From an uncultured Synechococcus sp. (lineage in GTDB: Bacteria; Cyanobacteriota; Cyanobacteriia; PCC-6307; Cyanobiaceae): DNA of 64,000 nucleotides. Within the stretch, counting starts at the first letter, position 1; the number at the start of each line of letters is the position of its first letter. The notes below the pieces were generated by a model, which saw nothing but the letters and a program-made list of their open reading frames with translations, did not search any database and had not been told where the DNA came from. Of this stretch, positions 5,886 to 24,031 are shown one piece after another. The stretch lies in assembly GCA_913049535.1 (NCBI GenBank), contig CAJWYF010000005.1, positions 9,962 to 73,961 of the forward strand, in the 5' to 3' direction. Position numbers and translations under genes: made by a program.

Positions 5886-6389
5886 ATGCTGGAGAACCTG
5901 CTCCCCCCGCTCAACGACAAGAACCTGCCGTGGATGGATGTCCTCCATCCAATCGTGGTGCACTTCGTGATCGCCATGGCGCTGATCACCGTGGTGTTCG
6001 ATCTGATCGGCGTCATCACCCGCAAACCCAACCTGTTTGAGGTGAGTTTCTGGAACTTGGTGGTGGCCACCGTGGCCATCTTCGTGGCCATCATCTTTGG
6101 ACAGGTGGAGGCCGGGTTGGCCGGGCCCTACGGCGGTGCCCGCGACATCCTCAATTACCACAGCACGATCGGCTGGTCCCTTGCTGGTGTGCTCTCGCTG
6201 CTGACGGGCTGGCGCTACGTGGTTCGCCAGAAGGACCCGGCGGCGTTGCCGACAGGCTTCCTGGTCATTGACGGGGTGCTCGCTGCCCTGGTGTTCACCC
6301 AGGTGTATCTCGGCGACAAGCTCGTCTGGGTCTATGGGCTGCACACCGTTCCTGTGGTGGAAGCGATGCGTAGCGGAGTGATCTCATGA
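5886..6389 (+). CDS. DUF2231-type membrane protein
   Basis: LHPIVVHFVIAM motif, about 4 hydrophobic helices; immediately upstream of oxidase genes. Confidence 0.8.
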   Translation: MLENLLPPLNDKNLPWMDVLHPIVVHFVIAMALITVVFDLIGVITRKPNLFEVSFWNLVVATVAIFVAIIFGQVEAGLAGPYGGARDILNYHSTIGWSLAGVLSLLTGWRYVVRQKDPAALPTGFLVIDGVLAALVFTQVYLGDKLVWVYGLHTVPVVEAMRSGVIS

Positions 6390-7006
6390 GCTTGTTGAGC
6401 ACCATCGTCTCCCCCATCAACGAGATCGTTGATTCCCTGGGGCCCAATGACCTTCCTTACAGCATTCCGCTGCACCCGAACCTGGTGCACATGACCATCG
6501 GTCTGTTCTCGATCGGCATCGCCTTCGACTACGCCGGTGCGTTTTATCCCCTTGAAAAGCGGGTGTTTCGCTTCCTGGCCCTGCCGGTGACGCGCGTCGG
6601 TTTTCATGACGTCGGCTGGTACAACGTGCTGGCCTGCAGCATCGTCACGTTCTTCACCGTGGCGGCCGGCTTCTACGAGATGCTGCTGGCGGTGCCCCTG
6701 CCGGGGGTCAAGACCGTGCTGGGCCAAGGGGCCATCACCACCATGCTCTGGCATGCCGTCGGTGGTGTGGCCCTGCTGCTGATCATCGTCGCGATGACGA
6801 TCTGGCGCGGCTTCATGCGCTTTGTCTGGCGCAAGGACCTGGGCCGTCAAGTGAGTTGGCTCTACCTGGCCGCCGGTGCCTTCATCCTCGTCGTGCTTGG
6901 GGTCCACGGCAGCCTTGGCGCCTGGCTGGCCAGTGAGTTCGGTGTTCACATCACGGCTGACCAGCTGCTGGCAGCCGGCGCCAACGTTCAGGAGGTGCTG
7001 CCATGA
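6386..7006 (+). CDS. DUF2231-type membrane protein (second paralog)
   Basis: LHPNLVHMTIG motif, about 4 TM helices; ATGA overlaps at both ends. Confidence 0.8.
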   Translation: MSLLSTIVSPINEIVDSLGPNDLPYSIPLHPNLVHMTIGLFSIGIAFDYAGAFYPLEKRVFRFLALPVTRVGFHDVGWYNVLACSIVTFFTVAAGFYEMLLAVPLPGVKTVLGQGAITTMLWHAVGGVALLLIIVAMTIWRGFMRFVWRKDLGRQVSWLYLAAGAFILVVLGVHGSLGAWLASEFGVHITADQLLAAGANVQEVLP

Positions 7007-7938
7007 CGACCACCACAAACAACAAAAGCCCCAACGTCGGCGCCATCGTCATCATTGCGGTGGCCGTTGCCCTGAACCTGGTGCTGGCTGTCCTGATGGC
7101 GCGCTGGTCCTACAGCTGGTTTCCGCCGCAGGCCTCCAGTGCAGCTCCCTATGTCGACGACCTCTTTGCCTTGGAGACAGGGATCGGCTCTTTCCTCTGG
7201 TTTGGCCTGACCGGAGTGATTGGCTGGACGTTGCTCTTCAATCGCGCCCCCAAATACGACGAGAGCTACGGCGAGCCGATCGAGGGCAACAACCGCCTTG
7301 AGATCACCTGGACGGTGATTCCAACGGTGATCGTGTTTGCGATCGCGATCTACTCCATGCAGGTCAACGACAAGCTTGATGCCCTCGGGCCGAAACAGAA
7401 GTACGCCCTGGGGACCGATCCGGCGACTGTGGCGGCGGTGGATCCTCGCGCCACGGTGGGCCCCATTGATGTGATTGCGCGGCAATGGAGCTGGGAGTTC
7501 ATCTACCCCGATGGCGTGCGCAGCTCCGAGTTGCATCTGCCGATCAACCAACGGGTCAACTTCCGCCTGATCAGTGAGGACGTCAACCACAGCTTCTATG
7601 TGCCGGCGTTCCGTCTCAAGCAGGACATCATCCCCGGAAGCGTTATTTCCTACAGCCTCACCCCCACCCGTGAAGGTCGTTTTCGTCTGCGGGACGCCAT
7701 GTTCAGCGGCGCTTACTTCTCGCAAAACCAGACCGATGTGATCGTCGAGTCCGATGAGGCGTACAGCAGCTGGCTCAAAGCCACGGCCAAGCAGCCGCTG
7801 CAGCCTGGCCTGAGCCCCGGCAGTGACCTCTACGCCAAACGTCTGGCCAATGGCGACAAGGGCTGGGCCACGGTGCCGCCAGCTCCGGCGCCTCTGGTCA
7901 ATGACCCCGGTGATGCCTCTATCCCCCACGACGCCTGA
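7003..7938 (+). CDS. ctaC: Heme-copper oxidase subunit II, ARTO type (CtaCII), lacking CuA ligands
   Basis: PIEGNNRLEITWT, ARQWSWEFIY, DVNHSFYVPAFRLKQDIIPG; the CuA loop CxExCx3Hx2M is replaced by DAMFSGAYFSQN. Confidence 0.9.
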   Translation: MTTTTNNKSPNVGAIVIIAVAVALNLVLAVLMARWSYSWFPPQASSAAPYVDDLFALETGIGSFLWFGLTGVIGWTLLFNRAPKYDESYGEPIEGNNRLEITWTVIPTVIVFAIAIYSMQVNDKLDALGPKQKYALGTDPATVAAVDPRATVGPIDVIARQWSWEFIYPDGVRSSELHLPINQRVNFRLISEDVNHSFYVPAFRLKQDIIPGSVISYSLTPTREGRFRLRDAMFSGAYFSQNQTDVIVESDEAYSSWLKATAKQPLQPGLSPGSDLYAKRLANGDKGWATVPPAPAPLVNDPGDASIPHDA

Positions 7939-7943
7939 GCATC

Positions 7944-9632
7944 ATGACCTCAACCAAGTTTGATCCCCGCATCCTCAAGGCGCCGCACCCAGTCCCTGGC
8001 GCACCTGATAACTGGAAGCGTTTTTTCAGCTTCAACACCGATGCCAAGGTCATCGGCATTCAATACATCGCCACCTCCCTGCTTTTCCTGCTGGTGGGCG
8101 GCCTGCTGGCCATGATTGTCCGCGGTGAGTTGATCACACCGCCTGCTGATCTGGTCGATCCCACCGTCTACAACGGCCTGTACACGATGCACGGGACAGT
8201 GATGCTGTTCCTGTTCCTGTTCCCTGTTCTCAATGGTCTGAACAACCTGCTGATCCCCACCATGATCGGTGCCCCGGATATGGCCTTCCCGCGGTTGAAT
8301 GCCGCGGCGTTCTGGCTGGTGCCGGTCTTTGCGGTGCTGTTGATGGGCAGCTTCTTCCTGCCTGGCGGCCCTGCGCAGGCGGGTTGGTGGTCCTACCCGC
8401 CGATCAGTATTCAGAACCCCATGGGGCTTTTCTTCAATGGCGAGCAGCTCTGGCTGCTGGCGGTCGCTCTCTCGGGAATTTCTTCCATCTTTGGTGCGAT
8501 CAATTTCGTCACCACGATTGTTCGCATGCGGGCCCCTGGGATGGGCTTTTTCAAAATGCCGCTCTACTGCTGGACCGCCTGGGGGGCCCAGATCATCCAG
8601 CTGATCGGACTGCCTGCCCTCACCGGTGGGGCCATCATGCTGCTGTTTGATCTCAGCTTTGGCACCAGTTTCTTCCGCCCAGAGGGTGGGGGTGATCCGG
8701 TGCTGTATCAACACTTTTTCTGGTTTTATTCCCACCCTGCCGTCTACGTGATGGTGCTGCCGGTGTTTGGCATCTTCTCGGAGGTGTTCACCTGCTATGC
8801 CCGCAAACCATTGTTTGGTTACAAGTTCGTAGCGCTGGCTTCCTTCGGGATTGTTTTTCTCTCCCTGATTGTCTGGGTGCACCACATGTTCTACACAGGC
8901 ACGCCCAACTGGATGCGCATCCTGTTCATGTTCACCACCATGACCATTGCTGTGCCCACAGGTGTCAAGGTGTTTGCCTGGGTGGCCACGCTATGGGGCG
9001 GCAAGCTGCGCCTGACGACGCCCATGCTGTTCTGTCTGGGTGGTCTGATCAATTTCATCTTTGCCGGTATCACCGGCGTGATGTTGGGCACCGTGCCGAT
9101 TGATATCCATGTGGGCAACACCTACTTTGTCGTGGCCCACTTCCACTACGTCATCTTCAACGCCATTGTGCTTGGCGTGTTCGCCGCGGTGTACCACTGG
9201 TTCCCGAAGTTCACGGGGCATATGTATTACGAGGGGTTGGGTAAACTCCATTTCGCGCTCACCTTCATTGGCTGCACACTCAACTGGCTGCCGTTGCACT
9301 GGGCTGGCCTGCTGGGCATGCCCCGGCGGGTGGCTTCCTACGACCCGGAATTCGCGATTTGGAATGTGATTGCCAGCATCGGCGCCTTCATGCTCGGCGT
9401 GGCAGCGATTCCGTTCATTCTCAACATGGTGAGTTCCTGGGCGCGTGGGCCCCAGTCACCTCCCAACCCCTGGGGCGCCATTGGCCTGGAGTGGCTGCTG
9501 CCCTCGCCCCCCCCGGCGGAGAACTTTGAGGACGATGTACCCACCGTGATCAACAACCCCTACGGCTATGGCCTGGGTGAACCCCAGGTGGCCGATGAGG
9601 AGTACTACATCCGTCGCGCCCAGGAGGCCTGA
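7944..9632 (+). CDS. ctaD: Heme-copper oxidase subunit I (A2-type YSHPAVY), ARTO CtaDII
   Basis: TMHG, FWFYSHPAVY, WVHHM, VAHFHY metal-ligand motifs intact. Confidence 0.95.
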   Translation: MTSTKFDPRILKAPHPVPGAPDNWKRFFSFNTDAKVIGIQYIATSLLFLLVGGLLAMIVRGELITPPADLVDPTVYNGLYTMHGTVMLFLFLFPVLNGLNNLLIPTMIGAPDMAFPRLNAAAFWLVPVFAVLLMGSFFLPGGPAQAGWWSYPPISIQNPMGLFFNGEQLWLLAVALSGISSIFGAINFVTTIVRMRAPGMGFFKMPLYCWTAWGAQIIQLIGLPALTGGAIMLLFDLSFGTSFFRPEGGGDPVLYQHFFWFYSHPAVYVMVLPVFGIFSEVFTCYARKPLFGYKFVALASFGIVFLSLIVWVHHMFYTGTPNWMRILFMFTTMTIAVPTGVKVFAWVATLWGGKLRLTTPMLFCLGGLINFIFAGITGVMLGTVPIDIHVGNTYFVVAHFHYVIFNAIVLGVFAAVYHWFPKFTGHMYYEGLGKLHFALTFIGCTLNWLPLHWAGLLGMPRRVASYDPEFAIWNVIASIGAFMLGVAAIPFILNMVSSWARGPQSPPNPWGAIGLEWLLPSPPPAENFEDDVPTVINNPYGYGLGEPQVADEEYYIRRAQEA

Positions 9633-9635
9633 ATT

Positions 9636-10238
9636 ATGACCAGCTCAGATCCTTCCATGCAACTCAATCACACCCCTGGCCACATCAAGCACTCCGGCCA
9701 TAATCTCACGGGTTTTGTGATTTTTCTCTGCTCTGAGAGCATCATCTTTTTGGCTTTCTTTGCCGGTTTTACGCTCTTCAAGCTGACCTCGCCGGAGTGG
9801 CTTCCACCAGGCGTCGAGGGCCTCGAGGTCAGGATGCCTCTGATTAATACCGTTGTGTTGGTAAGCTCCAGCTTTGTGGCCTACTTTGCCGAGCGCTATC
9901 TGCATAAGGGCAACCTCTGGGGCTTTCGCATCGTCTGGTTCATCACCATGTTGATGGGCGCTTACTTTGTTTATGGGCAGTATGTGGAATGGTCCAGCCT
10001 TGAGTTCGGCCTCGGCAGTGGTGTGTTCGGAGGGACCTTCTATTTGCTCACAGGATTCCATGGCTTGCATGTGATCACAGGCATTGGATTGATGGGGCTC
10101 ATGCTTTATCACTCCTTCCGTCCTGGCAACTATGAGAAAGGAGATATGGGCGTCACCGCTGTGAGTCTGTTCTGGCACTTCGTGGATGTGATTTGGATCA
10201 TCCTTTTTGTGCTCATTTACGTCTGGCAACGCTACTGA
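9636..10238 (+). CDS. ctaE: Heme-copper oxidase subunit III, ARTO CtaEII
   Basis: IFLCSESIIF, TGFHGLHV, FWHFVDVIW motifs. Confidence 0.93.
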   Translation: MTSSDPSMQLNHTPGHIKHSGHNLTGFVIFLCSESIIFLAFFAGFTLFKLTSPEWLPPGVEGLEVRMPLINTVVLVSSSFVAYFAERYLHKGNLWGFRIVWFITMLMGAYFVYGQYVEWSSLEFGLGSGVFGGTFYLLTGFHGLHVITGIGLMGLMLYHSFRPGNYEKGDMGVTAVSLFWHFVDVIWIILFVLIYVWQRY

Positions 10239-10248
10239 GGAGCCGATC

Positions 10249-11766
10249 ATGATCATCGACGACCAGGTTTACGACGTCATCGTTATTGGCAGCGGTGCTG
10301 CCGGTGGCACCCTTGCCGGGGACCTGGCAGGAAAGGGGCACCGGGTGCTGCTGTTGGAGCGGGGCCGCCAGATGCCCTTGCGGGATCAAAACGTGGCCGA
10401 TGTGCAACTGCTGCGCATGAAAGAGCGCTTCCACCCCCAGGAGCGTTGGTTTGGCCCTGATGGTGATCCCTTTGCACCGCAGTCGATGTATGCCCTGGGG
10501 GGCAACACCAAGATCTGGGGGGCGGTTCTTGAGCGCATGCGCGAGAGGGACTTTGGGCCATTGCCTCTGCAAGAGGGTGTTTCCCCTGACTGGGAGCTCA
10601 GCTACAGCGATCTTGCGCCCTATTACGACCAGGCCGAAGCACTCTTCTGTGTCCATGGCCGCGCCGGTGTCGACCCGACGGAGCCGCCGCGTCAGAGGGA
10701 TTACGCCCAGTCACCCCGCCCGGTGGAGCCCTTTCTCAATGAATTGCGTGGTGCGCTGGAGCGTCAGGGCTGCAAGCCCTATGAGTTGCCCTTGAGCTGG
10801 TCGGACAACAAAGAAGACCCCAGCGGAGATGCTGAGCTCTTTGGTGTTGCACCTGCCATCGCCGATCAGCAGGTGCAGTTGCGCACCGATGCAGTGGTTC
10901 GCCGTCTGCATGTCAACCCCTCCGGCACGGAGGTGCGGGGCGTTGAAGCCTGTATCGCCGGACAGGACTGGTTGTTCCAATCCCATCTCGTGGTGCTGGC
11001 CGCTGGGGCGATCAATACGCCTGTGATCCTGCTGCGTTCGACCAACGACAGCCATCCCCGGGGATTGGCCAATGGTTCCGACCAGGTGGGTCGCAACCTC
11101 ATGAAGCCGCAGCTGACCTCCATCCTGCAGCTGGCCGCAGCCCCCAACAGTGGCCGTTACCAGCGCTCGTTCGGCGTCAATGACTATTACTTCGGCGATA
11201 AGAACGTCAGTTTTCCCCTGGGTCATCTCCAGAGTTGTGGTGGGGTCCTGCAGGACGCCCTGTTTGCTGAATCCCCGCCGGTGCTCTCGCTGGTGGCGAA
11301 GCTGATGCCGAATTTTGGCCTCGAGGAGCTGGCTTCCCGTTCCGTCGCCTGGTGGGCCATGAGTGAGGTGCTGCCCGACTCCCATAACAAGGTTTATCTG
11401 CAGGGTGAGCAGATCCGCATCAACTACATCGCCAACAACCGCGAGGCCCATGACCGCCTCGTCTACCGCTGGATTGACACCTTGCAGGCGGTGGAAGCCG
11501 ATCCGCTCACCCATGTGGTGCGACAGGCCCCAACCCACCCCCGTGGTGAGGCCCCGTTGAGCGTGATGGGGTACGCCTGCGGCACCTGCCGGATGGGCAG
11601 CAATCCAGCCACATCGGTGGTTGATCTGCAGGGCCGCAGCCATGAGCTACGCAACCTCTACATCGCCGATGCCAGCGTCTTCCCCAGCTGCCCCAGCATC
11701 GGCACAGGCCTGACAACAATTGCGCTGTCGCTGCGGCTGGCGCAACACCTCGAATCGGAATTCTGA
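10249..11766 (+). CDS. GMC-family FAD oxidoreductase 1 (no Cys cluster; Tyr at the usual catalytic His position)
   Basis: YDVIVIGSGAAGG, LGGNTKIWG, LAAGAINTP, GYACGTCRMG, NLYIADASVFP; ATG 10249 after GAGGAG. Confidence 0.9.
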   Translation: MIIDDQVYDVIVIGSGAAGGTLAGDLAGKGHRVLLLERGRQMPLRDQNVADVQLLRMKERFHPQERWFGPDGDPFAPQSMYALGGNTKIWGAVLERMRERDFGPLPLQEGVSPDWELSYSDLAPYYDQAEALFCVHGRAGVDPTEPPRQRDYAQSPRPVEPFLNELRGALERQGCKPYELPLSWSDNKEDPSGDAELFGVAPAIADQQVQLRTDAVVRRLHVNPSGTEVRGVEACIAGQDWLFQSHLVVLAAGAINTPVILLRSTNDSHPRGLANGSDQVGRNLMKPQLTSILQLAAAPNSGRYQRSFGVNDYYFGDKNVSFPLGHLQSCGGVLQDALFAESPPVLSLVAKLMPNFGLEELASRSVAWWAMSEVLPDSHNKVYLQGEQIRINYIANNREAHDRLVYRWIDTLQAVEADPLTHVVRQAPTHPRGEAPLSVMGYACGTCRMGSNPATSVVDLQGRSHELRNLYIADASVFPSCPSIGTGLTTIALSLRLAQHLESEF

Positions 11767-14474
11767 TGTCGTTCACTGAGGCTTCAGCGCAAGCCATGCC
11801 GCCGAGTTCAGAGCATCGGCGCATGGCCGAGCGCGATGAAAAGCAGGTCCCCTGGATGCGATGGGGCAGTTACCTCAGCGATCGACAGTGGGGCACGGTG
11901 CGTGAGGACTACTCAGCAAGTGGTGATGCCTGGAGCTCTTTTCCCCATGACCATGCCCGCTCACGCACCTATCGCTGGGGCGAAGATGGTCTGCTGGGCA
12001 TCTGTGATCAGCGCTGTTTCCTTTGCTTTGGCATCGCACTGTGGAATGGCAAGGATCCGATCTTGAAGGAGCGACCCTTCGGACTGGGCAATGGTGAGGG
12101 GAATCATGGGGAGGACATCAAGGATTACTTTTTTCATCTGCTGAATACCCCCACCCATAGCTTCATGCGCGGGCTCTACAAATACCCCCAGCAGGAATTC
12201 CCGTATCAGCATCTGGTGGAAGAAAACGGCCGCCGGGGCCGCGATGAACCTGAATACGAGCTGGTTGAAACAGGCATTTTTGATGATAATCGCTATTTCG
12301 ATGTCATTGTTGATTACGCCAAGGCCAGCCCCGAAGATGTGCTGATTCGCATCCGCATCATCAATCGTGGCCCGGATGCAGCTCCCCTGACCTTGCTCCC
12401 GTCCCTCTGGATGCGTAACACCTGGGACTGGGGTTACAGCGATGCATGGCGTCAGCGCCACCCCCTCAAGCGGATCGCAACAGGTGTCGAAACCGCTGAT
12501 TTGAACAGTCTTGGCACCTATCAACTGGTTTGCCGGGAGCAGGGATCGTGGCTGTTCACAGAAAATCAGACCAACACGGAGCGCCTTTACGGCCAGCCCA
12601 ACCAGCAGCCTTATGTGAAGGATGCATTCCACCGCTATGTGATCGATGGCGATACCACAGCGGTGAATCCACAGCAGGAAGGAACCAAGGCGGCCTTGCT
12701 GCTTGAGAACACCATCCCTGCTGGAGATGAGTGGGTGGTGGATCTGCGTTTGGCCCGCCAGATGCCAGCGGCGCCTTTTGCGGCGGAGTTTGATCAGATC
12801 TTGCAAGAGCGGGAACGGGACTGCCTGGCCTATTTCCACTCCTGCGCCCCCAATCTCAGTGCGGCAGATGCCCTGATCTTCCGCTCAGCGGCCAGTGGCC
12901 TGCTGTGGTGCAAAAAGTTCTACCGCTGGGTCGTGATTCGGTGGCTCAGTGGTGATCCCAATCACCCCACTCCGCCCGTGGAGAGGCTCAAGACCGAGAA
13001 CGCCTACTGGCGCCGTCTTTACGCCGATGATGTGATCTCCATGCCGGATAGCTGGGAGTACCCCTACTTCTGCCAGTGGGATCTGATGTTCCACTCGGTG
13101 TCCTTCGCACCCATTGATCCGGCCACGGCCAAAGTCCAAAGCATGCTGCTGCGCAGCCCGCGCTACACGGCTCCAAATGCACAAACCCCTGCTTATGAGT
13201 GGGCCTTGTCGGATCCCAATCCACCGATTGGTGCATGGGCTGCCCTGCGTGTGTTTCAGATTGAACGCCATGACCGCGGTAGTGGCGATCTTCCCTATCT
13301 GCGCGCCGCAATGCGCAAGCTCATCCTTGAGTACGGCTGGTGGGCGAACCGGAATGATCGCTCCGGTGACAATGTTTTTGAGGGTGGATTCCTTGGTCTT
13401 GACAATATCGGGGTGTTTGATCGCCGTTATCCACTGCCCGATGGCAGTGTGATTGAACAGTGTGATGGCACGGCATGGATGGCTATGTTGAGTCTCAATC
13501 TGCTTGAGATCGCCGTCATCCTTTCCGCGGAGGAGCCGGAGTATGGCGATTTAGCGGAACGCTTTGTCTATGACTTTGCGCAGTTGGCCTCCACATTGAA
13601 CACCGATGCGGTGATTAATGATACGGCCAAGGTGATGCGCAGCTATCGGAGCTGGGATGAGCAAGATGGCTTTTATTACGACGTCATTAAGCGGCCGGAT
13701 GGCAGCTGGGACTATCTGCGGTCTCGCTCGATCTCTGGCCTGATTCCTCTGCTTGCGGTGGCCAGCTTTGATGTGGATACCGTGCAGCGTGTGGACTCAT
13801 TGAATGTCAATGCCATTCTGCGCCCATTTCTTTCTGAGCGCATCAGTCCTGCTTGGATCAATGAGCATTTTGGACGCTGGAATAATGATCGCACCTTGTT
13901 CTCGCTTGTTCCTGAAGATCATCTCAGGCGCATCCTCGAGTACGTCTTTGATGAGGATGAATTCCTCTCCCCCCATGGGATTCGATCACTGTCCAAGATC
14001 TATGAGCAGAATCCCTATACCTTCCATGAGGGTCTGGAGACAGGCACGCTTGCTTACAGCCCGGCAGACAGTCCTGTTGCCATGTTCGGAGGTAATTCGA
14101 ACTGGCGCGGTCCAGTGTGGATGCCGTTCAATTATCTCCTGATCGAATCGTTGCAGAAATTCGGCCACTATTACGGGGATAGCTTCAAAGTTGAATTCCC
14201 CACACGCTCTGGCCATTGGATCAGTCTCTGGGAGGCCTCGCTGGAGCTGGAAAAGCGTCTGGTGGGCCTGTTCCGCTGTGGTGAGGATGGGCGCCGGCCC
14301 TTCAATGGGGCCGTTGATCTCTTTCAGCATGACCCCCACTGGAAGGATCTGTTGCTATTCAATGAGTACTTCCACGGCGATAACGGCTCTGGTGTTGGTG
14401 CCAGTCACCAGACGGGCTGGACAGCGATCGTGCTGAAGATGATCACCCAATTGCAGCGCTACAGCTCGATGTAG
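11766..14474 (+). CDS. GH63-related (MGH1-like six-hairpin) glycoside hydrolase 1, 902 aa
   Basis: [80 protein letters not shown]. Confidence 0.85.
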   Translation: MSFTEASAQAMPPSSEHRRMAERDEKQVPWMRWGSYLSDRQWGTVREDYSASGDAWSSFPHDHARSRTYRWGEDGLLGICDQRCFLCFGIALWNGKDPILKERPFGLGNGEGNHGEDIKDYFFHLLNTPTHSFMRGLYKYPQQEFPYQHLVEENGRRGRDEPEYELVETGIFDDNRYFDVIVDYAKASPEDVLIRIRIINRGPDAAPLTLLPSLWMRNTWDWGYSDAWRQRHPLKRIATGVETADLNSLGTYQLVCREQGSWLFTENQTNTERLYGQPNQQPYVKDAFHRYVIDGDTTAVNPQQEGTKAALLLENTIPAGDEWVVDLRLARQMPAAPFAAEFDQILQERERDCLAYFHSCAPNLSAADALIFRSAASGLLWCKKFYRWVVIRWLSGDPNHPTPPVERLKTENAYWRRLYADDVISMPDSWEYPYFCQWDLMFHSVSFAPIDPATAKVQSMLLRSPRYTAPNAQTPAYEWALSDPNPPIGAWAALRVFQIERHDRGSGDLPYLRAAMRKLILEYGWWANRNDRSGDNVFEGGFLGLDNIGVFDRRYPLPDGSVIEQCDGTAWMAMLSLNLLEIAVILSAEEPEYGDLAERFVYDFAQLASTLNTDAVINDTAKVMRSYRSWDEQDGFYYDVIKRPDGSWDYLRSRSISGLIPLLAVASFDVDTVQRVDSLNVNAILRPFLSERISPAWINEHFGRWNNDRTLFSLVPEDHLRRILEYVFDEDEFLSPHGIRSLSKIYEQNPYTFHEGLETGTLAYSPADSPVAMFGGNSNWRGPVWMPFNYLLIESLQKFGHYYGDSFKVEFPTRSGHWISLWEASLELEKRLVGLFRCGEDGRRPFNGAVDLFQHDPHWKDLLLFNEYFHGDNGSGVGASHQTGWTAIVLKMITQLQRYSSM

Positions 14475-14484
14475 CGCTGCAATT
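14449..14484. repeat. Perfect 15-bp inverted repeat with 6-nt loop spanning the GH63-1 stop codon
   Basis: AATTGCAGCGCTACA-gctcga-TGTAGCGCTGCAATT. Confidence 0.9.
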
Positions 14485-14507
14485 CCACACACCTCCCCTG
14501 GCCTGCT

Positions 14508-16061
14508 ATGGACACGCATTACGACGTGCTGATTATCGGCAGTGGTGCCGGTGGTGGCACCTTGGCCCGGTGCCTCGCTGAAGCCGGTCGTCGGGTGCTG
14601 GTGCTTGAGCGGGGTGGGTGGTTGCCCCGCGAACCACAGAACTGGGATTCAGCCGAAGTGTTCCAGGCCAACCGCTACGTCTCTCCTGATCTCTGGAAAG
14701 ACAAGAACGGCCATGCGTTTCAACCCGGCAGTCATTACTTCGTTGGTGGTGCGACCAAGATGTATGGGGCCGCTCATTTCCGTTTTCGCGAACGCGATTT
14801 TGAGGAGGTGGTGCATGTCGATGGGATTTCCCCGTCCTGGCCACTGCGTTACAGCGACTTTGAGCCGTATTACACCAAGGCTGAAGCGACGTATCACGTG
14901 CATGGTCTGCGCGGTGAAGACCCCACCGAGCCACCCGCCAGTGGTCCCTACCCCCATCCCCCGGTGGCCCATGAACCGCGGATGCAGCAGTTGGTGGATG
15001 ATTTCCACGGTCAGGGGTTGCATCCCTTCCACATGCCTGTGGGTGTGAATCTCCTTGAGGACAACCTGCCGTTCAGTGCCTGCGTGAAGTGCAACCGCTG
15101 TGATGGTTTCCCTTGTTTGGTTCACGCCAAAGGTGATGCTGAGGTGATGGGGATGCGTCCCGGTCTCGCGGCGCCAACGCCACTGACATTGCTGACCCAT
15201 GCGGAAGTCAAACGACTGATCACCGATGCCAGCGGCCGCACGGTGACGCAGGTGGAGGTCGAGCATGAGGGAGAGCTGCGCAGCTTCTCCGCTGATCTGG
15301 TGGTGGTGAGCTGCGGTGCAGCCAATTCAGCGCGTCTGCTGTTGATGTCGGCGAATGATCACCACCCCCATGGTTTGGCTAACAGCTCCAATCAGGTGGG
15401 TCGCAATTACATGTATCACAACTGCAAAGTGGTGGTCGCCGTGGGGCACGAGCCCAACCACACGGTCTTTCAGAAGACCCCAGCTGTGAACGATTGGTAC
15501 TTCGGTGATCAGGACTTTGACTATCCCATGGGTCACGTGCAGATGACCGGTAAGACCAATGGCGCCATGATCAAAGGCTACAAACCAAAGCTGACGGCCA
15601 TGGCTCCGGCCTGGGCCATGGATCAGATTGCGAGCCATGCCCTTGATTTCTGGCTTCAGACGGAAGACTTACCTCTGAGTGAGAATCGCGTCACGGTTGA
15701 TCGCACTGGTCAGATCACCCTGAGCTATACCCCGACCAATGAGCAGGCGTCAGAGCAATTGAGACATCGTTTGGAGGCGACCCTTGATCGGGCTTATGCC
15801 AAAAATCATTGGGCTGAGCGCGAGATCTATTACGGATCAGCAATGAATATTGCTGCAGTGGGGCATCAATCGGGTACCTGCCGTTTTGGCACTGATCCCT
15901 CCACATCGGTGCTCGATGTGAATTGCAAGGCCCACGATCTTGACAATCTCTATGTCGTCGACACCAGCTTCATGCCGAGCATCAGTGCGGTCAACCCATC
16001 GCTGACCGCGATCGCCAATGCGATTCGCGTTTCTGAGCATCTGCTCGAGCGGCTGGCCTGA
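14508..16061 (+). CDS. GMC-family FAD oxidoreductase 2 with Cys-rich Fe-S-type motif
   Basis: YDVLIIGSGAGGG, VGGATKMYG, CVKCNRCDGFPC, GHQSGTCRFG, NLYVVDTSFMP. Confidence 0.9.
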   Translation: MDTHYDVLIIGSGAGGGTLARCLAEAGRRVLVLERGGWLPREPQNWDSAEVFQANRYVSPDLWKDKNGHAFQPGSHYFVGGATKMYGAAHFRFRERDFEEVVHVDGISPSWPLRYSDFEPYYTKAEATYHVHGLRGEDPTEPPASGPYPHPPVAHEPRMQQLVDDFHGQGLHPFHMPVGVNLLEDNLPFSACVKCNRCDGFPCLVHAKGDAEVMGMRPGLAAPTPLTLLTHAEVKRLITDASGRTVTQVEVEHEGELRSFSADLVVVSCGAANSARLLLMSANDHHPHGLANSSNQVGRNYMYHNCKVVVAVGHEPNHTVFQKTPAVNDWYFGDQDFDYPMGHVQMTGKTNGAMIKGYKPKLTAMAPAWAMDQIASHALDFWLQTEDLPLSENRVTVDRTGQITLSYTPTNEQASEQLRHRLEATLDRAYAKNHWAEREIYYGSAMNIAAVGHQSGTCRFGTDPSTSVLDVNCKAHDLDNLYVVDTSFMPSISAVNPSLTAIANAIRVSEHLLERLA

Positions 16062-16078
16062 GCCTGAAGGATGATTCA

Positions 16079-18784
16079 ATGGCACGCAAGCTGAACGTTC
16101 AATCAACACCTGAGTGGATGCGGGTCCTTGAGGATCAGCGGGGTGATATTGACTGGGGGCTATGGGGGACGTACCTACCGGATCGACAGTGGGGAACGGT
16201 TCGTGAGTGCTATTGCCCCAGCCTGGATGCTTGGCGCTCGTTCACCCATGATCAATCCCGATCGAGGGTGTATCGCTGGGGCGAGGATGGACTGCTGGGC
16301 TTGAGTGATCGCCATTGCATGCTTTGCTTTGCACCGAGTTTCTGGAATCACCGTGATCCAATCCTCAAAGAACGTTTGTTTGGCTTGGCAAACCATGAGG
16401 GCAATCACGGAGAAGATGTTAAAGAGGTTTATTATCATCTTCTGAATACGCCAAGTCACAGTTATGCCAAGGGTTTGTACGTCTATCCCATTCAGGCATT
16501 CCCTTACGATGAACTGGTGGATGCCAATCAGGCCCGAGCTCGTACTGAGGCTGAGTATGAGCTAGAGGATACTGGCGTCTTTAAGGAGTTGGGTGCTTTT
16601 CACTGTTATGTGGAGTATGCCAAAAATCATTTCAATGATCTTCTGATTCGCATCACTGTAGAAAATCAATCGCAGTTCTCGGCACCAATCACCATCCTCC
16701 CCACTCTCTGGATTCGTAATCAGTGGGATTGGGGCTACCCTGAAATTCAAAAAGGCTCAATCAGGCCTGGTGAGCATCATTCCCTTGATATCAGCAGTAT
16801 CAAAGGTGTAGGCCCTGGTCGCTTTCGCTATGAGGAGTTGGAGGAGTATTCTTTTTATTGTGATCAGCCCAATTCATGGATTTTTACCGATAATGAAACC
16901 AACCATGATGTGGTTTTTTCGCAGGCTTCAAAGACGCCTTACACCAAGGACGCTTTTCATCGCTTTGTGGTGGATGGTCAGAGCAATGCTGTTAACGCTG
17001 TGGGGGGGACAAAAGCCGCCATGGTTTGTCAGCGGGAGCTTTCAGCTGGTGAGTCGTGGACGATTTGTTGCCGCCTGAGTCAAATTGCCACGGATGATCC
17101 GTTTGGCGGTGAGTTTGATGTGATGATGCGGCGCCGCGCCATGGAGGCGCAGCAGTTTTACGCTGCATCATTTCAAGCTCTTGAGTTGGAGCCCAGCGGT
17201 CAACACTATGCAACGTATTGCGCAGCATCGGCAGGTTTGCTTTGGTCTAAAAAGTTTTACTCCTTTAATGTACGGCGTTGGCTGAAGGGAGATCCAGGCC
17301 ATCCTGTGCCGGCAGAACAGCGCAAGTTGACGGATTATGCCAATTGGAAATATCTGAACTCAACCGGACTCTTTTTAATGCCTGATGCTTGGGAATATCC
17401 CTATTTTTGTAAATGGGATCTGATGTTTCATGCCGTTGCCTGCGCTGATCTTGATCCAGCTCTTGCTAAACAGCAGGTCAATATTCTCAGGACCAGCGAA
17501 TATGCAGCATCCAATGCCCAGGTTCCCGCCTATGAATGGGCTTTCTCCGATGTAGACCCACCATTAGGCGCCTGGGCTGCTTGGCGCGTCTTCACAACAG
17601 ACCGCAGCCGTCGCAGGGATGGAGATTGGGACTTTCTGGTTGATGCCTGGCGCCTGTTGCTTGTGGAATATGGCTGGTGGGCGAACCGCACGGACCGTAC
17701 AGGGCACGAGCTATTTGATGGTGGCTTCCTTGGCCTTGACAATATTTCGCCATTTGATCGTCGCTATCCACTGAAAGATGGACGTCGTATCGAGCAGGCG
17801 GACGGGACAGCTTGGATGGCATTCCTGACCCTTTATATGCTCAAGATCACCGTAGCGATTGACCAACATGATGGTTTGGCAGATGTTTCTGAGATGGTCA
17901 ATCGATTCAAGATGAGCTTCATCAATCTTGTGGTGACGATGAATCATGCTGATGAGCGTGGTTATCAGTGCTGGGATCCAGAAGATCAGTTTTATTATGA
18001 TTTGCTGTCTTCAGCTGATGGACGCGCTGAGTATGTCAAAGTGCGCTCATTGACAGGTGTGATTCCACTGCTGGCTGTTCAGTCTTTCTCAAAGGAAGAA
18101 GTGGAGTATGACCAGCGCCTTGATATTGATGAATTTCGGCGCTCCTATTCACGCTTTTATTCACAAGACGCTTTTTACGACTCTATTCATCACCTTGGTC
18201 GCTATGGCACCGGCCGCTATCTGTATGCAGTGGTTTCGCCCGAACGCTTGCGTCAAATCTGTCGATGGTTGTTTGATGAGGACGAGTTTCTTTCCCCTTA
18301 CGGTATTCGCTCATTGTCCAAACACTACCAAGACCATCCTTACCGCTATGACGTTGCTGGTGAGACCTTTCAGATTGAGTACACGCCAGCTGATAGTCCA
18401 GTTTCCATGTTCGGGGGCAATTCAAACTGGCGAGGACCTGTCTGGATCCCCATCAACTATCTTCTGATTGAAGCGCTGCAGGAGTATTTCCGTGCGCTTG
18501 GGCGTGACTTCCTCATTGAGTATCCAACAGGTTCAGGTCAATATCTGAATCTTGAGCAGATTGCCAGCGATTTGCGCAACCGGCTGCTGGCTTTATTTGC
18601 GGCGGATGAATCAGGCCTGCCGCCCTTTGTTCCCCCCGGCTCATACCGCGACACCCATCGGGAGCTGGTGCCCCATCTGTTGTTTCATGAGTATTTCAAT
18701 GGTGACACCGGCCAGGGGGTTGGCGCCAGCCATCAGACCGGCTGGACTGCGATGGTTCGGCGCCTGATTCTGCAGTGCTCTTGA
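16079..18784 (+). CDS. GH63-related (MGH1-like) glycoside hydrolase 2, 901 aa
   Basis: [79 protein letters not shown]. Confidence 0.85.
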   Translation: MARKLNVQSTPEWMRVLEDQRGDIDWGLWGTYLPDRQWGTVRECYCPSLDAWRSFTHDQSRSRVYRWGEDGLLGLSDRHCMLCFAPSFWNHRDPILKERLFGLANHEGNHGEDVKEVYYHLLNTPSHSYAKGLYVYPIQAFPYDELVDANQARARTEAEYELEDTGVFKELGAFHCYVEYAKNHFNDLLIRITVENQSQFSAPITILPTLWIRNQWDWGYPEIQKGSIRPGEHHSLDISSIKGVGPGRFRYEELEEYSFYCDQPNSWIFTDNETNHDVVFSQASKTPYTKDAFHRFVVDGQSNAVNAVGGTKAAMVCQRELSAGESWTICCRLSQIATDDPFGGEFDVMMRRRAMEAQQFYAASFQALELEPSGQHYATYCAASAGLLWSKKFYSFNVRRWLKGDPGHPVPAEQRKLTDYANWKYLNSTGLFLMPDAWEYPYFCKWDLMFHAVACADLDPALAKQQVNILRTSEYAASNAQVPAYEWAFSDVDPPLGAWAAWRVFTTDRSRRRDGDWDFLVDAWRLLLVEYGWWANRTDRTGHELFDGGFLGLDNISPFDRRYPLKDGRRIEQADGTAWMAFLTLYMLKITVAIDQHDGLADVSEMVNRFKMSFINLVVTMNHADERGYQCWDPEDQFYYDLLSSADGRAEYVKVRSLTGVIPLLAVQSFSKEEVEYDQRLDIDEFRRSYSRFYSQDAFYDSIHHLGRYGTGRYLYAVVSPERLRQICRWLFDEDEFLSPYGIRSLSKHYQDHPYRYDVAGETFQIEYTPADSPVSMFGGNSNWRGPVWIPINYLLIEALQEYFRALGRDFLIEYPTGSGQYLNLEQIASDLRNRLLALFAADESGLPPFVPPGSYRDTHRELVPHLLFHEYFNGDTGQGVGASHQTGWTAMVRRLILQCS

Positions 18785-18820
18785 TGGCTACCTTTGGAGG
18801 GTCCATCTCGTGTCGCGGCC

Positions 18821-19234
18821 ATGACAATCGGTGATGTCCTGAAAACCACCGTTAGCCATCCCTTCATCACCCGCATCAATCACATTGCGCTGATGGCCAG
18901 GCCCGGTGAGCATCATCAGGCTCGTGCATTTTATGCTGGTCTGCTGGGGATGACGGAAGTTCCGTTGCCGGATGATCTTTGTGGCAACAGCAATCTTGAT
19001 CTCGTTTGGTTCGTCTTTAATGACGTGATGATTCATGTCTCCTTCACAGATGACTATGTGCCTGTGCCTGTTGGTCGGCATGTCTGCATTGAGGTGGAGA
19101 ATCTTGGTGATCTGCGCGTCAGAATGGAAGCGGCTGGTTGTGGGATTGAGGAGCAGGTGAGGCTGCCGGATCGAGAGCGGTTCTTTGTCTCCGACCCCTT
19201 TGGGAACTACTTTGAATTCATGGAATTCAACTGA
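18821..19234 (+). CDS. VOC/glyoxalase-family protein
   Basis: RINHIALM, AFYAGLLGMTEV, HVCIEVENL, FVSDPFGNYFEF; start 18821 (ATG) or 18794 (TTG). Confidence 0.85.
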   Translation: MTIGDVLKTTVSHPFITRINHIALMARPGEHHQARAFYAGLLGMTEVPLPDDLCGNSNLDLVWFVFNDVMIHVSFTDDYVPVPVGRHVCIEVENLGDLRVRMEAAGCGIEEQVRLPDRERFFVSDPFGNYFEFMEFN

Positions 19235-20705: not shown

Positions 20706-20874
20706 TGATCTGCATTGTCTCCAGGCATGGTAGGCAGCACTTCAGCGCGACTCTGATTCACCTGGAATCTGTTGTTAAGTCCTGACGGCTGGGGCTCAAG
20801 CACGAAGACATGTTGGCGCTGTGATCTGCTGCTGCTTCGTGATTGCTAAAGACGCTGGTGATGCATGACGAGCG

Positions 20875-21831
20875 ATGCCAAATCTCCTGTGCCTCCAAGG
20901 CCTGATCAGGAATTGCAGCGATCTTGATGGCCTCAAGAACTGGTATGTCGAGCAACTTGGCTTGACGCTTGCATGGGAGCAGCGCTGCACGGCGGCATGG
21001 ATTTCTGAGCTGTTTCCAGGGACTGTTGCTGCAAGCTTGGACTGTTGTGCCTTGCGACTGGGCCAGGAGACGTTGTGGTTGATGTCCTGGCCCGAGGTGT
21101 TGATGCAGCCGATGCCTGCCGCAACCCGGGGAATTGACCACTGGTTTCAGCACATTTGTCTGGTGAGTGATGCGCTGGAGAGGGCTTATGCCGAACGGTT
21201 GCAAGGCGCCTGCCGTCCCATTTCCACCGCTCCCCAGACCTTGCCCGAGTGGAATCGGGGTGCTGCAGGGATTCAGGCGGTGAAGTTCTTTGACCTTGAA
21301 GGGCACCCCCTCGAGCTGCTGCAGTTTCCGCCGGGGAAGGGGGCGCCGCGTTGGCATGCTGATCACGATGGCTCCGGCCAGCCTCGGGGGATCGATCACA
21401 CCGCGATTTCCATTGCTGACACCACCATCAGCCTGTCGTTTTATGGCGAGCTCTTGGGGCTCCAGCGTGTCGGCGGAGGCCTCAACCATGGTCCTGAACA
21501 GGATGCGCTGGATGGACTGGAGTCAGCCCGCGTTGAGATCACCGCGCTGCAGGCTCAACCCGGCCAGATGGGGGTTGAGTTCCTTCACTATCAGAGTCCA
21601 CGCGGTGGCATGAGCCGCGCCGATGCCCGTTGGAGTGATCTGGTGAACGACACGATGGTGATCCAAGCCGATGGGATTCGCGATCTTCACGCTCGCGCTC
21701 AGGCATCGCCGTGGGCTCAGCACTGCAGCTCTCTGGTTTCGCTCCCCTTGCCCCTGTTTGGCGGAGAGTTGGGATTCACCCTGCGGGATCCCGACCTGCA
21801 TGGGGTGCTCCTGGTGGGTGAGGATCGCTAG
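20875..21831 (+). CDS. Two-domain VOC-family protein
   Basis: FQHICLVS, KFFDLEGHPLELLQFP, GIDHTAISIAD, GVEFLHY. Confidence 0.8.
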   Translation: MPNLLCLQGLIRNCSDLDGLKNWYVEQLGLTLAWEQRCTAAWISELFPGTVAASLDCCALRLGQETLWLMSWPEVLMQPMPAATRGIDHWFQHICLVSDALERAYAERLQGACRPISTAPQTLPEWNRGAAGIQAVKFFDLEGHPLELLQFPPGKGAPRWHADHDGSGQPRGIDHTAISIADTTISLSFYGELLGLQRVGGGLNHGPEQDALDGLESARVEITALQAQPGQMGVEFLHYQSPRGGMSRADARWSDLVNDTMVIQADGIRDLHARAQASPWAQHCSSLVSLPLPLFGGELGFTLRDPDLHGVLLVGEDR

Positions 21832-22525: not shown

Positions 22526-22529
22526 GGGA

Positions 22530-23902: not shown

Positions 23903-24031
23903 GCCGACTCCCCGTGCTTCATCGGCATAGGCGCTAGTGGTAAAGAATGCGTTGTTACTGCTGGCATCTGGTGGCTTTAGATCTTGCACAGCATTGGATG
24001 TCTAGCCTGAAGACCATGCGGCTGTTTTGTC

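What the first reader, a model, noticed from the sequence alone, without database searches (positions are those of the whole stretch)
5886..19234. One 13-kb operon joining an alternative terminal oxidase to tandem GMC oxidoreductase-glycosidase modules: candidate glycoside-to-oxygen respiratory system
Seen: ten co-oriented genes (DUF2231 x2, ctaCII-DII-EII, GMC1, GH63-1, GMC2, GH63-2, VOC) with overlaps or gaps of only -4, -4, 5, 3, 10, -1, 33, 17 and 9-36 nt, and no U-tailed terminator between the oxidase and sugar genes. Known: CuA-less ARTOs are thought to oxidise quinol; GMC enzymes with a Cys-rich Fe-S motif (e.g. bacterial FAD glucose dehydrogenases) pass electrons from sugars to respiratory carriers; GH63 members hydrolyse glucosyl/mannosyl-glycerate-type solutes; picocyanobacteria make glucosylglycerol and glucosylglycerate. 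Inference: a dedicated chain (glycoside to glucose to lactone, electrons to quinone, then ARTO and O2) for dark, low-oxygen or osmotic-downshift energy or an electron valve. I know of no description of this coupling.
Basis: partly seen in the sequence, partly recalled or inferred. Interest (0 to 1): 0.9.

Follow-up and report, generated by a model that had tools for sequence, protein, structure and literature searches.

The report
ARTO oxidase operon fused to sugar-oxidation module
A small freshwater-type cyanobacterium carries the known "alternative" respiratory oxidase operon with a flavoprotein gene that follows it in most cyanobacteria, joined end to end to a widespread sugar-splitting and sugar-oxidising gene set, which gives a testable lead to what feeds this oxidase.

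Summary
The stretch is a composite, not one invented system.

- **Unit A** (5886-11766): DUF2231a, DUF2231b, ctaCII, ctaDII, ctaEII, GMC1. This is the ARTO operon plus a flavoprotein. GMC1 follows ctaEII in all 35 sampled ARTO genomes outside one family, and in 1 of 36 genomes inside that family. GMC1 has lost the Cys loop and the usual catalytic His/Asn.
- **Unit B**: a GH63-like glycosidase, the Fe-S flavoprotein GMC2 and a glucose-1-dehydrogenase-like SDR, often with a VOC protein, lactonase, GlcG or DoxX. It occurs without ARTO in other cyanobacteria and in five other phyla. The Cyanobiaceae copy groups with the non-cyanobacterial ones.
- **Unit C** (16079-20705): GH63-2, VOC1 and an MFS gene. 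It has low G+C and is missing from the closest relative.

A and B are contiguous in 34 of 41 Cyanobiaceae genomes that have both. Unit B parts also sit beside ARTO-like operons in different arrangements in Microcoleus and Nostoc. A redox link is therefore plausible but unproven. Glucosylglycerol as the substrate is not supported. The A+GMC1 cluster is already tabulated, undiscussed, in a 2023 supplement. Interest is moderate to high.

The parts
5886..6389 (+). DUF2231a, a 4-helix membrane protein and first gene of unit A
   Evidence: Pfam PF09990 E 2e-35. Present upstream of ctaCII in all fetched ARTO loci. Four His are invariant across both paralogues.
6386..7006 (+). DUF2231b, paralogue of DUF2231a, overlapping it by 4 nt
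   Evidence: Pfam PF09990. Conserved order in L024-L031 and L039-L042.
7003..7938 (+). ctaCII, subunit II of ARTO, without CuA
   Evidence: COX2 and COX2_TM hits. CuA ligands are absent when compared with the genome's own CtaCI.
7944..9632 (+). ctaDII, subunit I of ARTO
   Evidence: COX1 E 1e-151. 52% identical to the genome's own ctaDI and 64-97% to ARTO-type copies elsewhere.
9636..10238 (+). ctaEII, subunit III of ARTO
   Evidence: COX3 hit.
10249..11766 (+). GMC1, the ARTO-linked GMC flavoprotein: FAD motif kept, Cys loop deleted, catalytic His replaced by Tyr and Asn by Gly
   Evidence: Found directly after ctaEII in 67 of 67 family genomes and 35 of 35 ARTO genomes outside family f7.
11766..14474 (+). 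GH63-1, a ~900-aa GH63-like glycosidase and the conserved partner of GMC2 (unit B)
   Evidence: Pfam PF03200 and PF22422. Profile hits GH63 structures. The AlphaFold model matches glucosidase I and YgjK. Adjacent to GMC2-type genes in 41 family genomes.
14449..14484 (+). Perfect 14-bp hairpin over the GH63-1 stop codon, with no U tract
   Evidence: A weaker copy occurs in the same genus only.
14508..16061 (+). GMC2, an Fe-S-type GMC dehydrogenase with C-x2-C-x2-C-x4-C and the catalytic His and Asn present
   Evidence: The tree places it with non-cyanobacterial copies.
16079..18784 (+). GH63-2, an old diverged paralogue (49% identical to GH63-1) lying in a low-G+C, strain-specific insert
   Evidence: Absent from the closest relative G130.
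18794..19234 (+). VOC1, a small glyoxalase/VOC-fold protein that is part of the insert
   Evidence: Pfam PF00903. No counterpart in G130 or G023.
19227..20705 (-). DHA2-type MFS efflux permease, part of the insert
   Evidence: Absent from G130 and G023.
20875..21831 (+). VOC2, a two-domain VOC protein and recurrent member of unit B
   Evidence: Follows GMC2 directly in G023 and G130 and recurs beside GMC2-type genes in other phyla.
21828..22268 (-). GlcG/HbpS-like protein
   Evidence: Recurs in unit B loci of other phyla.
22530..23459 (-). SMP-30/gluconolactonase-like lactonase (SGL)
   Evidence: Recurs beside GMC2-type genes in Microcoleus, Nostoc and other phyla.
23456..23989 (-). Cupin protein, coupled to the lactonase gene
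24032..24526 (+). DoxX membrane protein, a possible membrane or quinone partner of unit B
   Evidence: Adjacent to unit B in G023, G130, G109, G039, Microcoleus and Nostoc.
24517..25320 (+). SDR of the glucose-1-dehydrogenase subfamily, a core member of unit B
   Evidence: NF005559 score 234 bits against a cut-off of 215. 46-48% identical to unit B SDRs of other cyanobacteria and 61-68% to those of Actinomycetota, Planctomycetota and Chloroflexia.

Best explanation
The stretch is a composite of three layers.

**Unit A.** This is the cyanobacterial ARTO operon: DUF2231a, DUF2231b, CtaCII (no CuA), CtaDII, CtaEII. It is extended by GMC1, a flavoprotein that descends from Fe-S GMC dehydrogenases. 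GMC1 has lost the Fe-S loop and the canonical catalytic pair. It is therefore more likely an ARTO accessory or redox partner than a sugar dehydrogenase.

**Unit B.** This sugar-oxidation module is widespread in bacteria and was probably acquired horizontally. It contains GH63-like glycosidase GH63-1, the Fe-S flavoprotein GMC2, VOC2, DoxX, a glucose-1-dehydrogenase-like SDR, a lactonase and a cupin. In the Cyanobiaceae ancestor it was inserted directly downstream of unit A, and it is probably read through from it.

**Unit C.** GH63-2, VOC1 and an MFS gene form a strain-specific insert.

**Inferred working.** A cytoplasmic GH63-like enzyme releases a hexose, most likely glucose, from an unidentified alpha-glucoside. 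The hexose is oxidised by the SDR (to NAD(P)H) and by GMC2. GMC2 would pass electrons from FAD through its Fe-S cluster to a membrane carrier, such as DoxX or plastoquinone. The lactonase opens the lactone. ARTO then disposes of the electrons onto O2.

**Shown:** the gene content, motifs, fold and conservation. **Inferred:** the substrate, the electron path and co-transcription.
For: - **Anatomy and domains:**
- **Unit A in the family:** 67 of 151 family genomes have ARTO, and all 67 have a GMC1-type gene. It lies directly after ctaEII wherever both genes are on one contig.
- **Unit A in the phylum:** of 351 genomes, 71 have an ARTO-type ctaD. GMC1 lies 0.6-1.6 kb downstream in 35 of 35 outside family f7 and in 1 of 36 inside it. 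The same six-gene order is seen in 8 of 8 fetched loci from eight families and in named strains.
- **GMC1 against GMC2 motifs:**
- **GMC tree:** ARTO-linked 4-Cys forms (Cyanomargarita, uncultured B12) sit at the base of the GMC1 clade. Cyanobiaceae GMC2 sits inside a clade from other phyla. All key nodes have support 1.0.
- **Unit B:** GH63 and GMC2 are adjacent in 41 family genomes, and 34 of these are contiguous with unit A.
- **Unit B neighbours:** the GMC2-VOC2-DoxX-SDR string is seen in G023.
- **Independent juxtapositions with ARTO-like operons:** Microcoleus has GH63-DUF2231a/b-ctaCDE with a 3-Cys GMC, SGL and DoxX. Nostoc has the ARTO-like genes with VOC2, DoxX, SGL and a GMC. G296 and G459 look the same.
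- **GMC2 relatives:** nearest solved structures are FAD-GDH and FDH.
- **GH63 fold:**
- **Insert C:**
Against: - No transcript data could be obtained. A strong hairpin sits at the GH63-1/GMC2 junction.
- Unit B occurs without ARTO in 4 of 8 outgroup cyanobacteria. It occurs with no oxidase genes in five other phyla.
- Units A and B are on separate contigs or about 8-10 kb apart in 7 of 41 family genomes.
- Conserved adjacency within a strongly syntenic family can be inherited without any function.
- GMC2 has neither the cytochrome c subunit nor the Tat small subunit of its characterised relatives. No membrane anchor has been shown for it.
- An NAD(P)-linked SDR could do the sugar oxidation without any quinone link.
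Confidence: 0.5

Rival explanations
1. The two units are only neighbours. The ARTO+GMC1 operon and the sugar module are functionally independent, and an ancestral insertion placed them side by side in the compact, syntenic genomes of picocyanobacteria. Unit B feeds central carbon metabolism (gluconate, then the OPP or ED pathway). It has no special relation to ARTO.
For: - Unit B is widespread without any oxidase: in outgroup cyanobacteria G431, G478, G329 and G203, and in Actinomycetota, Chloroflexia, Planctomycetota, Acidobacteriota and Verrucomicrobiota.
- The units are split in g39, G116, G087 and G109.
- The flanking genes fumC and the aminotransferase are syntenic too.
- A hairpin lies at the junction.
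Against: - Spacings of 10 and -1 nt in this window, and 10 and -4 nt in G023, are kept across genera.
- In the family, unit B is found only in genomes with ARTO or with GMC1 at a contig edge.
- Unit B parts lie beside ARTO-like operons in different arrangements in Microcoleus, Nostoc, G296 and G459.
- The ARTO-linked GMC lineage itself derives from Fe-S GMC dehydrogenases.
Confidence: 0.3
2. There is a dedicated electron-input complex. The His-rich DUF2231 pair, perhaps haem-binding, together with the GMC flavoprotein(s) replaces the missing CuA entry. ARTO would then receive electrons directly from a flavoprotein dehydrogenase rather than, or in addition to, plastoquinol.
For: - DUF2231a/b and GMC1 are strictly linked to ctaCII-EII.
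- Four His are invariant in both DUF2231 paralogues.
- The basal ARTO-linked GMCs keep the 4-Cys motif.
- CuA is absent.
Against: - GMC1 lacks the Fe-S loop and the catalytic His/Asn in most lineages.
- One whole family with a functional ARTO, the family that matches Anabaena's published alr2729-alr2730-coxB3A3C3 operon (PMC6616624), lacks GMC1.
- The DUF2231 model gave no significant structural match to any cytochrome.
- There is no biochemical evidence.
Confidence: 0.15
3. This is osmolyte recycling. The GH63-like enzymes would hydrolyse glucosylglycerol or glucosylglycerate after an osmotic downshift, and the released glucose would be respired.
For: - Characterised small GH63/MGH enzymes hydrolyse glucosyl- and mannosylglycerate. 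There are weak profile hits to TTHA0978 and to mycobacterial GgH.
- A MIP channel gene lies next to GH63 in three outgroup loci.
Against: - ggpS (TIGR02398) is absent from this genome and from its closest relative. Only 9 of 41 unit B genomes have it, against 51 of 110 others.
- The carriers are largely freshwater Cyanobium or Synechococcus by their record names.
- The known glucosylglycerol hydrolase GghA/Slr1670 belongs to another family, GHL5 (PMC5002435), and no GHL5 hit was seen.
- Unit B is common in soil phyla.
- Glucosylglycerate synthesis genes were not tested.
Confidence: 0.1

Closest known systems
Cyanobacterial ARTO (type-1 alternative respiratory terminal oxidase: ctaCII-DII-EII of Synechocystis; the Qox/Cox3 operon alr2729-alr2730-coxB3-coxA3-coxC3 of Anabaena PCC 7120, PMC6616624)
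   Same: It has the same five genes in the same order, with a DUF2231 pair upstream. Subunit II lacks CuA and subunit I is a distinct paralogue.
   Different: Here, and in most cyanobacteria outside one family, a sixth gene, GMC1, follows ctaEII. In Cyanobiaceae a sugar module is appended as well.
ARTO gene cluster of marine picocyanobacteria in Dore et al. 2023 (ISME J, PMC10119275; ProCAG_016/SynCAG_015, Dataset 6)
   Same: It lists DUF2231 x2, ctaC2, ctaD2, ctaE2 and a 'choline dehydrogenase-like flavoprotein' (CK_00001536) as one co-distributed adjacent cluster tied to low-iron waters.
   Different: The flavoprotein is not discussed in that paper. No GH63 or second GMC was found in the parts of the supplement that are held. 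No mechanism is proposed.
Membrane-bound FAD glucose dehydrogenase of Burkholderia cepacia (6a2u) and fructose dehydrogenase of Gluconobacter (7w2j)
   Same: GMC2 aligns over its full length (E 1e-34 and 1e-25). Its Cys cluster sits where their 3Fe-4S cluster sits, and the catalytic His and Asn are conserved.
   Different: GMC2 has no Tat small subunit, no cytochrome c subunit and no signal peptide. Its Cys spacing, C-x2-C-x2-C-x4-C, is ferredoxin-like. It is predicted to be cytoplasmic.
GH63 glycosidases (ER processing alpha-glucosidase I; E. coli YgjK; small MGH/GgH glucosylglycerate hydrolases)
   Same: Pfam hits are above cut-off. The C-terminal motifs WRGPxW and E-Y-F...HQTGWT are shared. 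The predicted two-domain fold matches glucosidase I and YgjK.
   Different: Sequence identity is only 12-15%. The protein is about 900 aa with a long N-terminal domain. It matches no NCBIfam model and its substrate is unknown.

Membership tests
ARTO (CuA-less haem-copper oxidase of cyanobacteria) | Subunit I is a paralogue distinct from the housekeeping CtaDI | tested here: met
   52% identical to the genome's own ctaDI on contig C36, against 64-97% to ARTO-type copies elsewhere.
ARTO (CuA-less haem-copper oxidase of cyanobacteria) | Subunit II lacks the CuA ligands | tested here: met
   LRDAMFSGAYFSQNQ stands in place of IVCAELCGPYHGGM of CtaCI.
ARTO (CuA-less haem-copper oxidase of cyanobacteria) | Two DUF2231 genes lie upstream, as in the Anabaena alr2729-alr2730-coxB3A3C3 operon | tested here: met
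   PMC6616624.
ARTO (CuA-less haem-copper oxidase of cyanobacteria) | Quinol-oxidising, O2-reducing activity | not testable with these tools
   This needs biochemistry.
GMC oxidoreductase superfamily | N-terminal FAD-binding GxGxxG motif plus the GMC_oxred_C domain | tested here: met
   Both GMC1 and GMC2 have them.
GMC oxidoreductase superfamily | Catalytic His and the His/Asn partner near the C-terminus | tested here: not met
   This verdict is for GMC1. It has Tyr (Asn or His in other lineages) at the His position and Gly/Ser/Pro/Thr at the Asn position. GMC2 has both residues.
Fe-S flavoprotein dehydrogenase catalytic subunits (FAD-GDH, FDH type) | Cys cluster in the loop that binds 3Fe-4S | tested here: met
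   This verdict is for GMC2. The C-x2-C-x2-C-x4-C motif is invariant in 13 of 13 GMC2-type sequences and aligns on the B. cepacia Cys region. GMC1 has a 20-aa deletion at that place.
Fe-S flavoprotein dehydrogenase catalytic subunits (FAD-GDH, FDH type) | Partner cytochrome c subunit and a small subunit carrying a Tat signal | tested here: not met
   No such genes occur among the annotated ORFs from 3.1 to 25.3 kb. GMC2 begins directly with the FAD fold.
Glycoside hydrolase family 63 | N-terminal beta-sandwich plus (alpha/alpha)6 catalytic domain | tested here: met
   The AlphaFold model (pLDDT 71, pTM 0.77) matches Chaetomium, mouse and yeast glucosidase I and E. coli YgjK, with E 1e-11 to 2e-8 and probability 1.0.
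Glycoside hydrolase family 63 | Catalytic Asp (acid) and Glu (base) | tested here: inconclusive
   E867 (EYF) aligns with the Glu-containing motif of yeast glucosidase I. D546 (GLDN) is invariant. Assignment of the acid residue rests on weak alignment.
GghA/Slr1670 glucosylglycerol hydrolase (GHL5) | GHL5-type domain | tested here: not met
   Pfam gives only PF03200 and PF22422. Slr1670 is described as GHL5 (PMC5002435).
NAD(P) glucose 1-dehydrogenase (SDR, NCBIfam NF005559 subfamily) | Score above the curated cut-off | tested here: met
   Window SDR (24517-25320) scores 234 bits against 215. The unit B SDR of L035 scores 232 bits. This is a subfamily-level model, so substrate is not proven.

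The most novel reading that the evidence does not exclude
ARTO may not be simply a plastoquinol oxidase. The strictly co-inherited DUF2231 pair (four invariant His each) and the GMC flavoprotein lineage could form its missing electron-entry module. In picocyanobacteria the appended GH63/GMC2 module would then make a private sugar-to-oxygen chain that bypasses the photosynthetic electron carriers.
Probability: 0.18. Interest if true: 0.85.

Novelty: new variant of a known kind. Interest (0 to 1): 0.6.

Why it matters
The electron donor and physiological role of cyanobacterial ARTO are still unsettled. It has been proposed as a minimal plasma-membrane chain, as an electron valve, and as a contributor to iron reduction. 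It is enriched in low-iron ocean populations (PMC10119275).

A flavoprotein follows ctaEII in every sampled ARTO genome outside one family, and Fe-S sugar dehydrogenase modules are placed beside ARTO repeatedly. Together these give concrete knockout and pull-down targets: GMC1, DUF2231a/b, GMC2 and GH63.

Unit B is also an uncharacterised gene cluster found in several phyla. It combines a GH63-like glycosidase, an Fe-S GMC, an SDR, a VOC protein, a lactonase and GlcG, and its substrate is unknown.

Tried and rejected
- **GH63-like proteins as the known glucosylglycerol hydrolase GghA.** Rejected, because that enzyme belongs to a different family, GHL5.
- **Glucosylglycerol as substrate.** ggpS is absent here and is anti-correlated with unit B. 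Glucosylglycerate synthase was not tested, because I had no reliable model accession.
- **DUF2231 fold search.** There was no significant match. The best was a cytochrome bd-II chain at E 0.37, and otherwise generic four-helix bundles. Haem binding remains a guess.
- **Single-sequence PDB search with GH63-2.** It gave only faint hits. The profile and fold searches were needed.
- **Literature searches.** Joining ARTO or ctaEII with GMC or choline dehydrogenase found nothing. DUF2231 has no functional paper in the library. The pan-genome co-occurrence paper PMC5862535 does not mention ARTO.
- **'Two tandem GMC-GH63 modules' as a duplication unit.** Rejected by the GMC tree and the motifs.
- **Terminator and promoter scans.** They were uninformative, with counts equal to those in shuffled sequence.


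Full report
**1. Observation**

The ten + strand ORFs lie at 5886-19234 exactly as described. The gaps are -4, -4, 5, 3, 10, -1, 33, 17 and 9 (or 36 with the later ATG).

Pfam and NCBIfam assign these domains:
- DUF2231 twice;
- COX2, COX1 and COX3;
- two GMC oxidoreductases;
- two ~900-aa proteins with Glyco_hydro_63 and MGH1-like_GH;
- a VOC protein.

The GMC1 start at 10249 is fixed by an invariant MIIDD N-terminus in 13 orthologues. CtaCII has none of the CuA ligands that the genome's own CtaCI has.

Terminator-like sites are no more frequent than in shuffled sequence. A perfect 14-bp hairpin without a U tract covers the GH63-1 stop codon (-31 kcal/mol, z -3.8). A weaker version exists in the same genus only.

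**2. Host**

The window is contig C5 of a 1.93-Mb assembly that is 90.7% complete. The nearest GH63 proteins are named Synechococcus, Cyanobium or Vulcanococcus, largely from lakes. The host is therefore a picocyanobacterium of the Cyanobiaceae.

**3. Unit A: the ARTO operon plus GMC1**

I tallied the following by hand from the search outputs.

| Sample | ARTO-type ctaD | GMC1-type gene after ctaEII |
|---|---|---|
| 151 genomes of the family | 67 (at least 74% identity) | all 67; the only exceptions to adjacency are contig breaks |
| 351 genomes of the phylum, outside family f7 | 35 | 35 of 35, 0.6-1.6 kb downstream on the same strand |
| 351 genomes of the phylum, inside family f7 | 36 | 1 of 36 |

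- Family f7 fits the published Anabaena operon alr2729-alr2730-coxB3-coxA3-coxC3, which has no such gene (PMC6616624).
- Eight fetched loci from eight families all show DUF2231a-DUF2231b-ctaC-ctaD-ctaE-GMC1.
- Named strains do too: Pseudanabaena, Oculatella LEGE 06141, Leptolyngbya FACHB-8, Phormidium lacuna, Synechococcus CCY 0621 and CS-1332, and Cyanobium CH-040.
- Dore et al. 2023 list this same cluster in Dataset 6, including a 'choline dehydrogenase-like flavoprotein'. They tie it to low-iron waters but do not discuss the flavoprotein.
- No paper joining ARTO with a GMC enzyme was found.

**4. GMC1 is not an ordinary dehydrogenase**

- All GMC1-type sequences keep the FAD motif.
- They have a 20-residue deletion where GMC2 carries C-x2-C-x2-C-x4-C.
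- The catalytic His is Tyr, Asn or His depending on lineage.
- The partner Asn is Gly, Ser, Pro or Thr.

Two ARTO-linked genes, in Cyanomargarita calcarea and an uncultured cyanobacterium, keep the 4-Cys motif but have the GMC1-like C-terminus. They branch at the base of the GMC1 clade with support 1.0. The ARTO-linked flavoprotein therefore descends from an Fe-S GMC dehydrogenase.

**5. GMC2 looks complete**

Its nearest solved relatives are the catalytic subunits of B. cepacia FAD glucose dehydrogenase (E 1.6e-34) and Gluconobacter fructose dehydrogenase. Its Cys motif aligns on their 3Fe-4S region, and the catalytic His and Asn are invariant. It has no signal peptide. It also lacks the small Tat subunit and the cytochrome c subunit of those enzymes.

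**6. The ~900-aa proteins are GH63-like**

- A 16-sequence profile hits yeast, Chaetomium and mouse glucosidase I. It hits TTHA0978 and mycobacterial GgH weakly.
- The AlphaFold model (pLDDT 71, pTM 0.77) matches glucosidase I and E. coli YgjK over both domains, at E down to 1e-11.
- E867 and D546 are invariant and are the likely catalytic pair. The acid assignment is weak.
- They are not the known glucosylglycerol hydrolase GghA, which is in family GHL5.

**7. Unit B is a separate, widespread module**

*In Cyanobiaceae*
- GH63 and GMC2-type genes are adjacent in 41 genomes.
- 34 of these are contiguous with unit A.
- 7 are split: four genomes of genus g39, plus G116 and G087, have the units on other contigs. 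In G109 the units lie about 8-10 kb apart.
- In the sister genome G023 the + strand string is ARTO-GMC1-GH63-GMC2-VOC2-DoxX-SDR. The first three gaps after ctaE are 10, -4 and 27 nt, and the later ones stay under 70 nt.
- The SDR passes the NCBIfam glucose-1-dehydrogenase subfamily cut-off.

*In other cyanobacteria*
- GMC2-type, SDR and GH63 genes cluster with a MIP channel, a VOC protein, GDE-type or GH116 glycosidases, and no oxidase.
- 4 of 8 such genomes lack an ARTO-type ctaD altogether.

*In other phyla*
- The same set (Fe-S GMC, SDR, GH63, VOC2, lactonase, GlcG) occurs in Actinomycetota, Chloroflexia, Planctomycetota, Acidobacteriota and Verrucomicrobiota.
- The window's GMC2 is 57-61% identical and its SDR 61-68% identical to those copies. 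Identity to other cyanobacterial copies is lower (52-55% and 46-48%).
- The tree places Cyanobiaceae GMC2 inside the non-cyanobacterial clade. Horizontal acquisition is likely.

**8. Evidence that the juxtaposition is more than inheritance**

- In Microcoleus sp. S13_B4, GH63-DUF2231a-DUF2231b-ctaC-ctaD-ctaE are co-directional. A 3-Cys GMC2-type gene, a lactonase and DoxX lie next to them.
- In Nostoc sp. DedVER02, an ARTO-like operon is followed by VOC2, DoxX, a lactonase and the same 3-Cys GMC.
- G296 and G459 repeat the Microcoleus pattern.

Sugar-module parts therefore meet ARTO-type operons in at least three different arrangements.

**9. Unit C**

- G+C falls from about 0.62 to 0.50 over 16-19 kb.
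- The closest relative, G130, goes from GMC2 straight to VOC2. It lacks GH63-2, VOC1, the MFS gene and GlcG.
- GH63-2 groups with the second copies of genus g46 (support 100/100), as sister to the Cyanobiaceae GH63-1 clade. It is an old paralogue with patchy retention or transfer.

**10. Substrate**

- ggpS is absent from this genome and from G130.
- Only 9 of 41 unit B genomes carry it, against 51 of 110 others.
- This argues against glucosylglycerol. Glucosylglycerate was not tested.

**11. DUF2231**

Four His are invariant across both paralogues. The model is confident (pLDDT 88.6). It has no significant structural match.

**12. Verdict**

The ARTO operon is known, and its flavoprotein partner is tabulated but unexplained. 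The appended module is a new variant of that operon. A sugar-to-ARTO electron route is plausible (about even odds for some functional link, about 0.18 for a dedicated complex) and unproven.

Earlier agents of this scan reached the same two-module view in other genomes. That agrees with this report but is not independent evidence.

Noticed in passing
window 16000-21000: G+C drops to 0.50-0.57 against 0.60-0.67 around it. This coincides with genes that the closest relative G130 lacks (GH63-2, VOC1, MFS efflux pump).
   Followed up: yes
window 22268-22594 (- strand): A Nif11-like small ORF sits between GlcG and the lactonase. A 51%-identical copy sits in the same place in G130 (L045:4293-4568).
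   Followed up: partly
G126:C9:45243-47858, G150:C3:7240-9858, G010:C8:111357-113990 and others: A third GH63-like paralogue (42-45% identical to GH63-2) occurs in several Cyanobiaceae genera. G126 and G150 have it without ARTO or any GMC gene.
   Followed up: no
L069-L072, L075 (Nostoc, Microcoleus): GMC2-type proteins here have C-x2-C-x2-F-x4-C, with the third Cys replaced by Phe. That leaves three Cys, as expected for a 3Fe-4S cluster rather than a 4Fe-4S cluster.
   Followed up: partly
L050, L051, L106, L110, L112: Several public MAG records have titles that do not fit their content. 'Candidatus Sulfopaludibacter sp. SbA3' and 'Rhizobium sp. Q54' carry a Synechococcus-type ARTO-GMC1-GH63 locus (about 70% identical). 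'uncultured Bifidobacterium' and 'Enterobacteriaceae' MAGs carry soil-type unit B genes. Mis-binning or mislabelling is likely.
   Followed up: no
L032:3139-4002, L033:2164-3027, L036:7317-8159: A MIP (aquaporin or glycerol-facilitator type) channel gene lies directly next to the GH63-like gene in three non-Cyanobiaceae cyanobacteria. This hints at a small polyol as one hydrolysis product.
   Followed up: partly
L037:8010-9017 (G444): A 2Fe-2S ferredoxin domain fused to an adenylate/guanylate cyclase domain lies between two GMC2-type genes.
   Followed up: no
window 5886-7006: Both DUF2231 paralogues share four invariant His (the HPxxVH motif, one mid-helix His and a C-terminal GxH) plus invariant Asp, Glu and Trp-Arg. 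This is compatible with a bound redox cofactor.
   Followed up: partly
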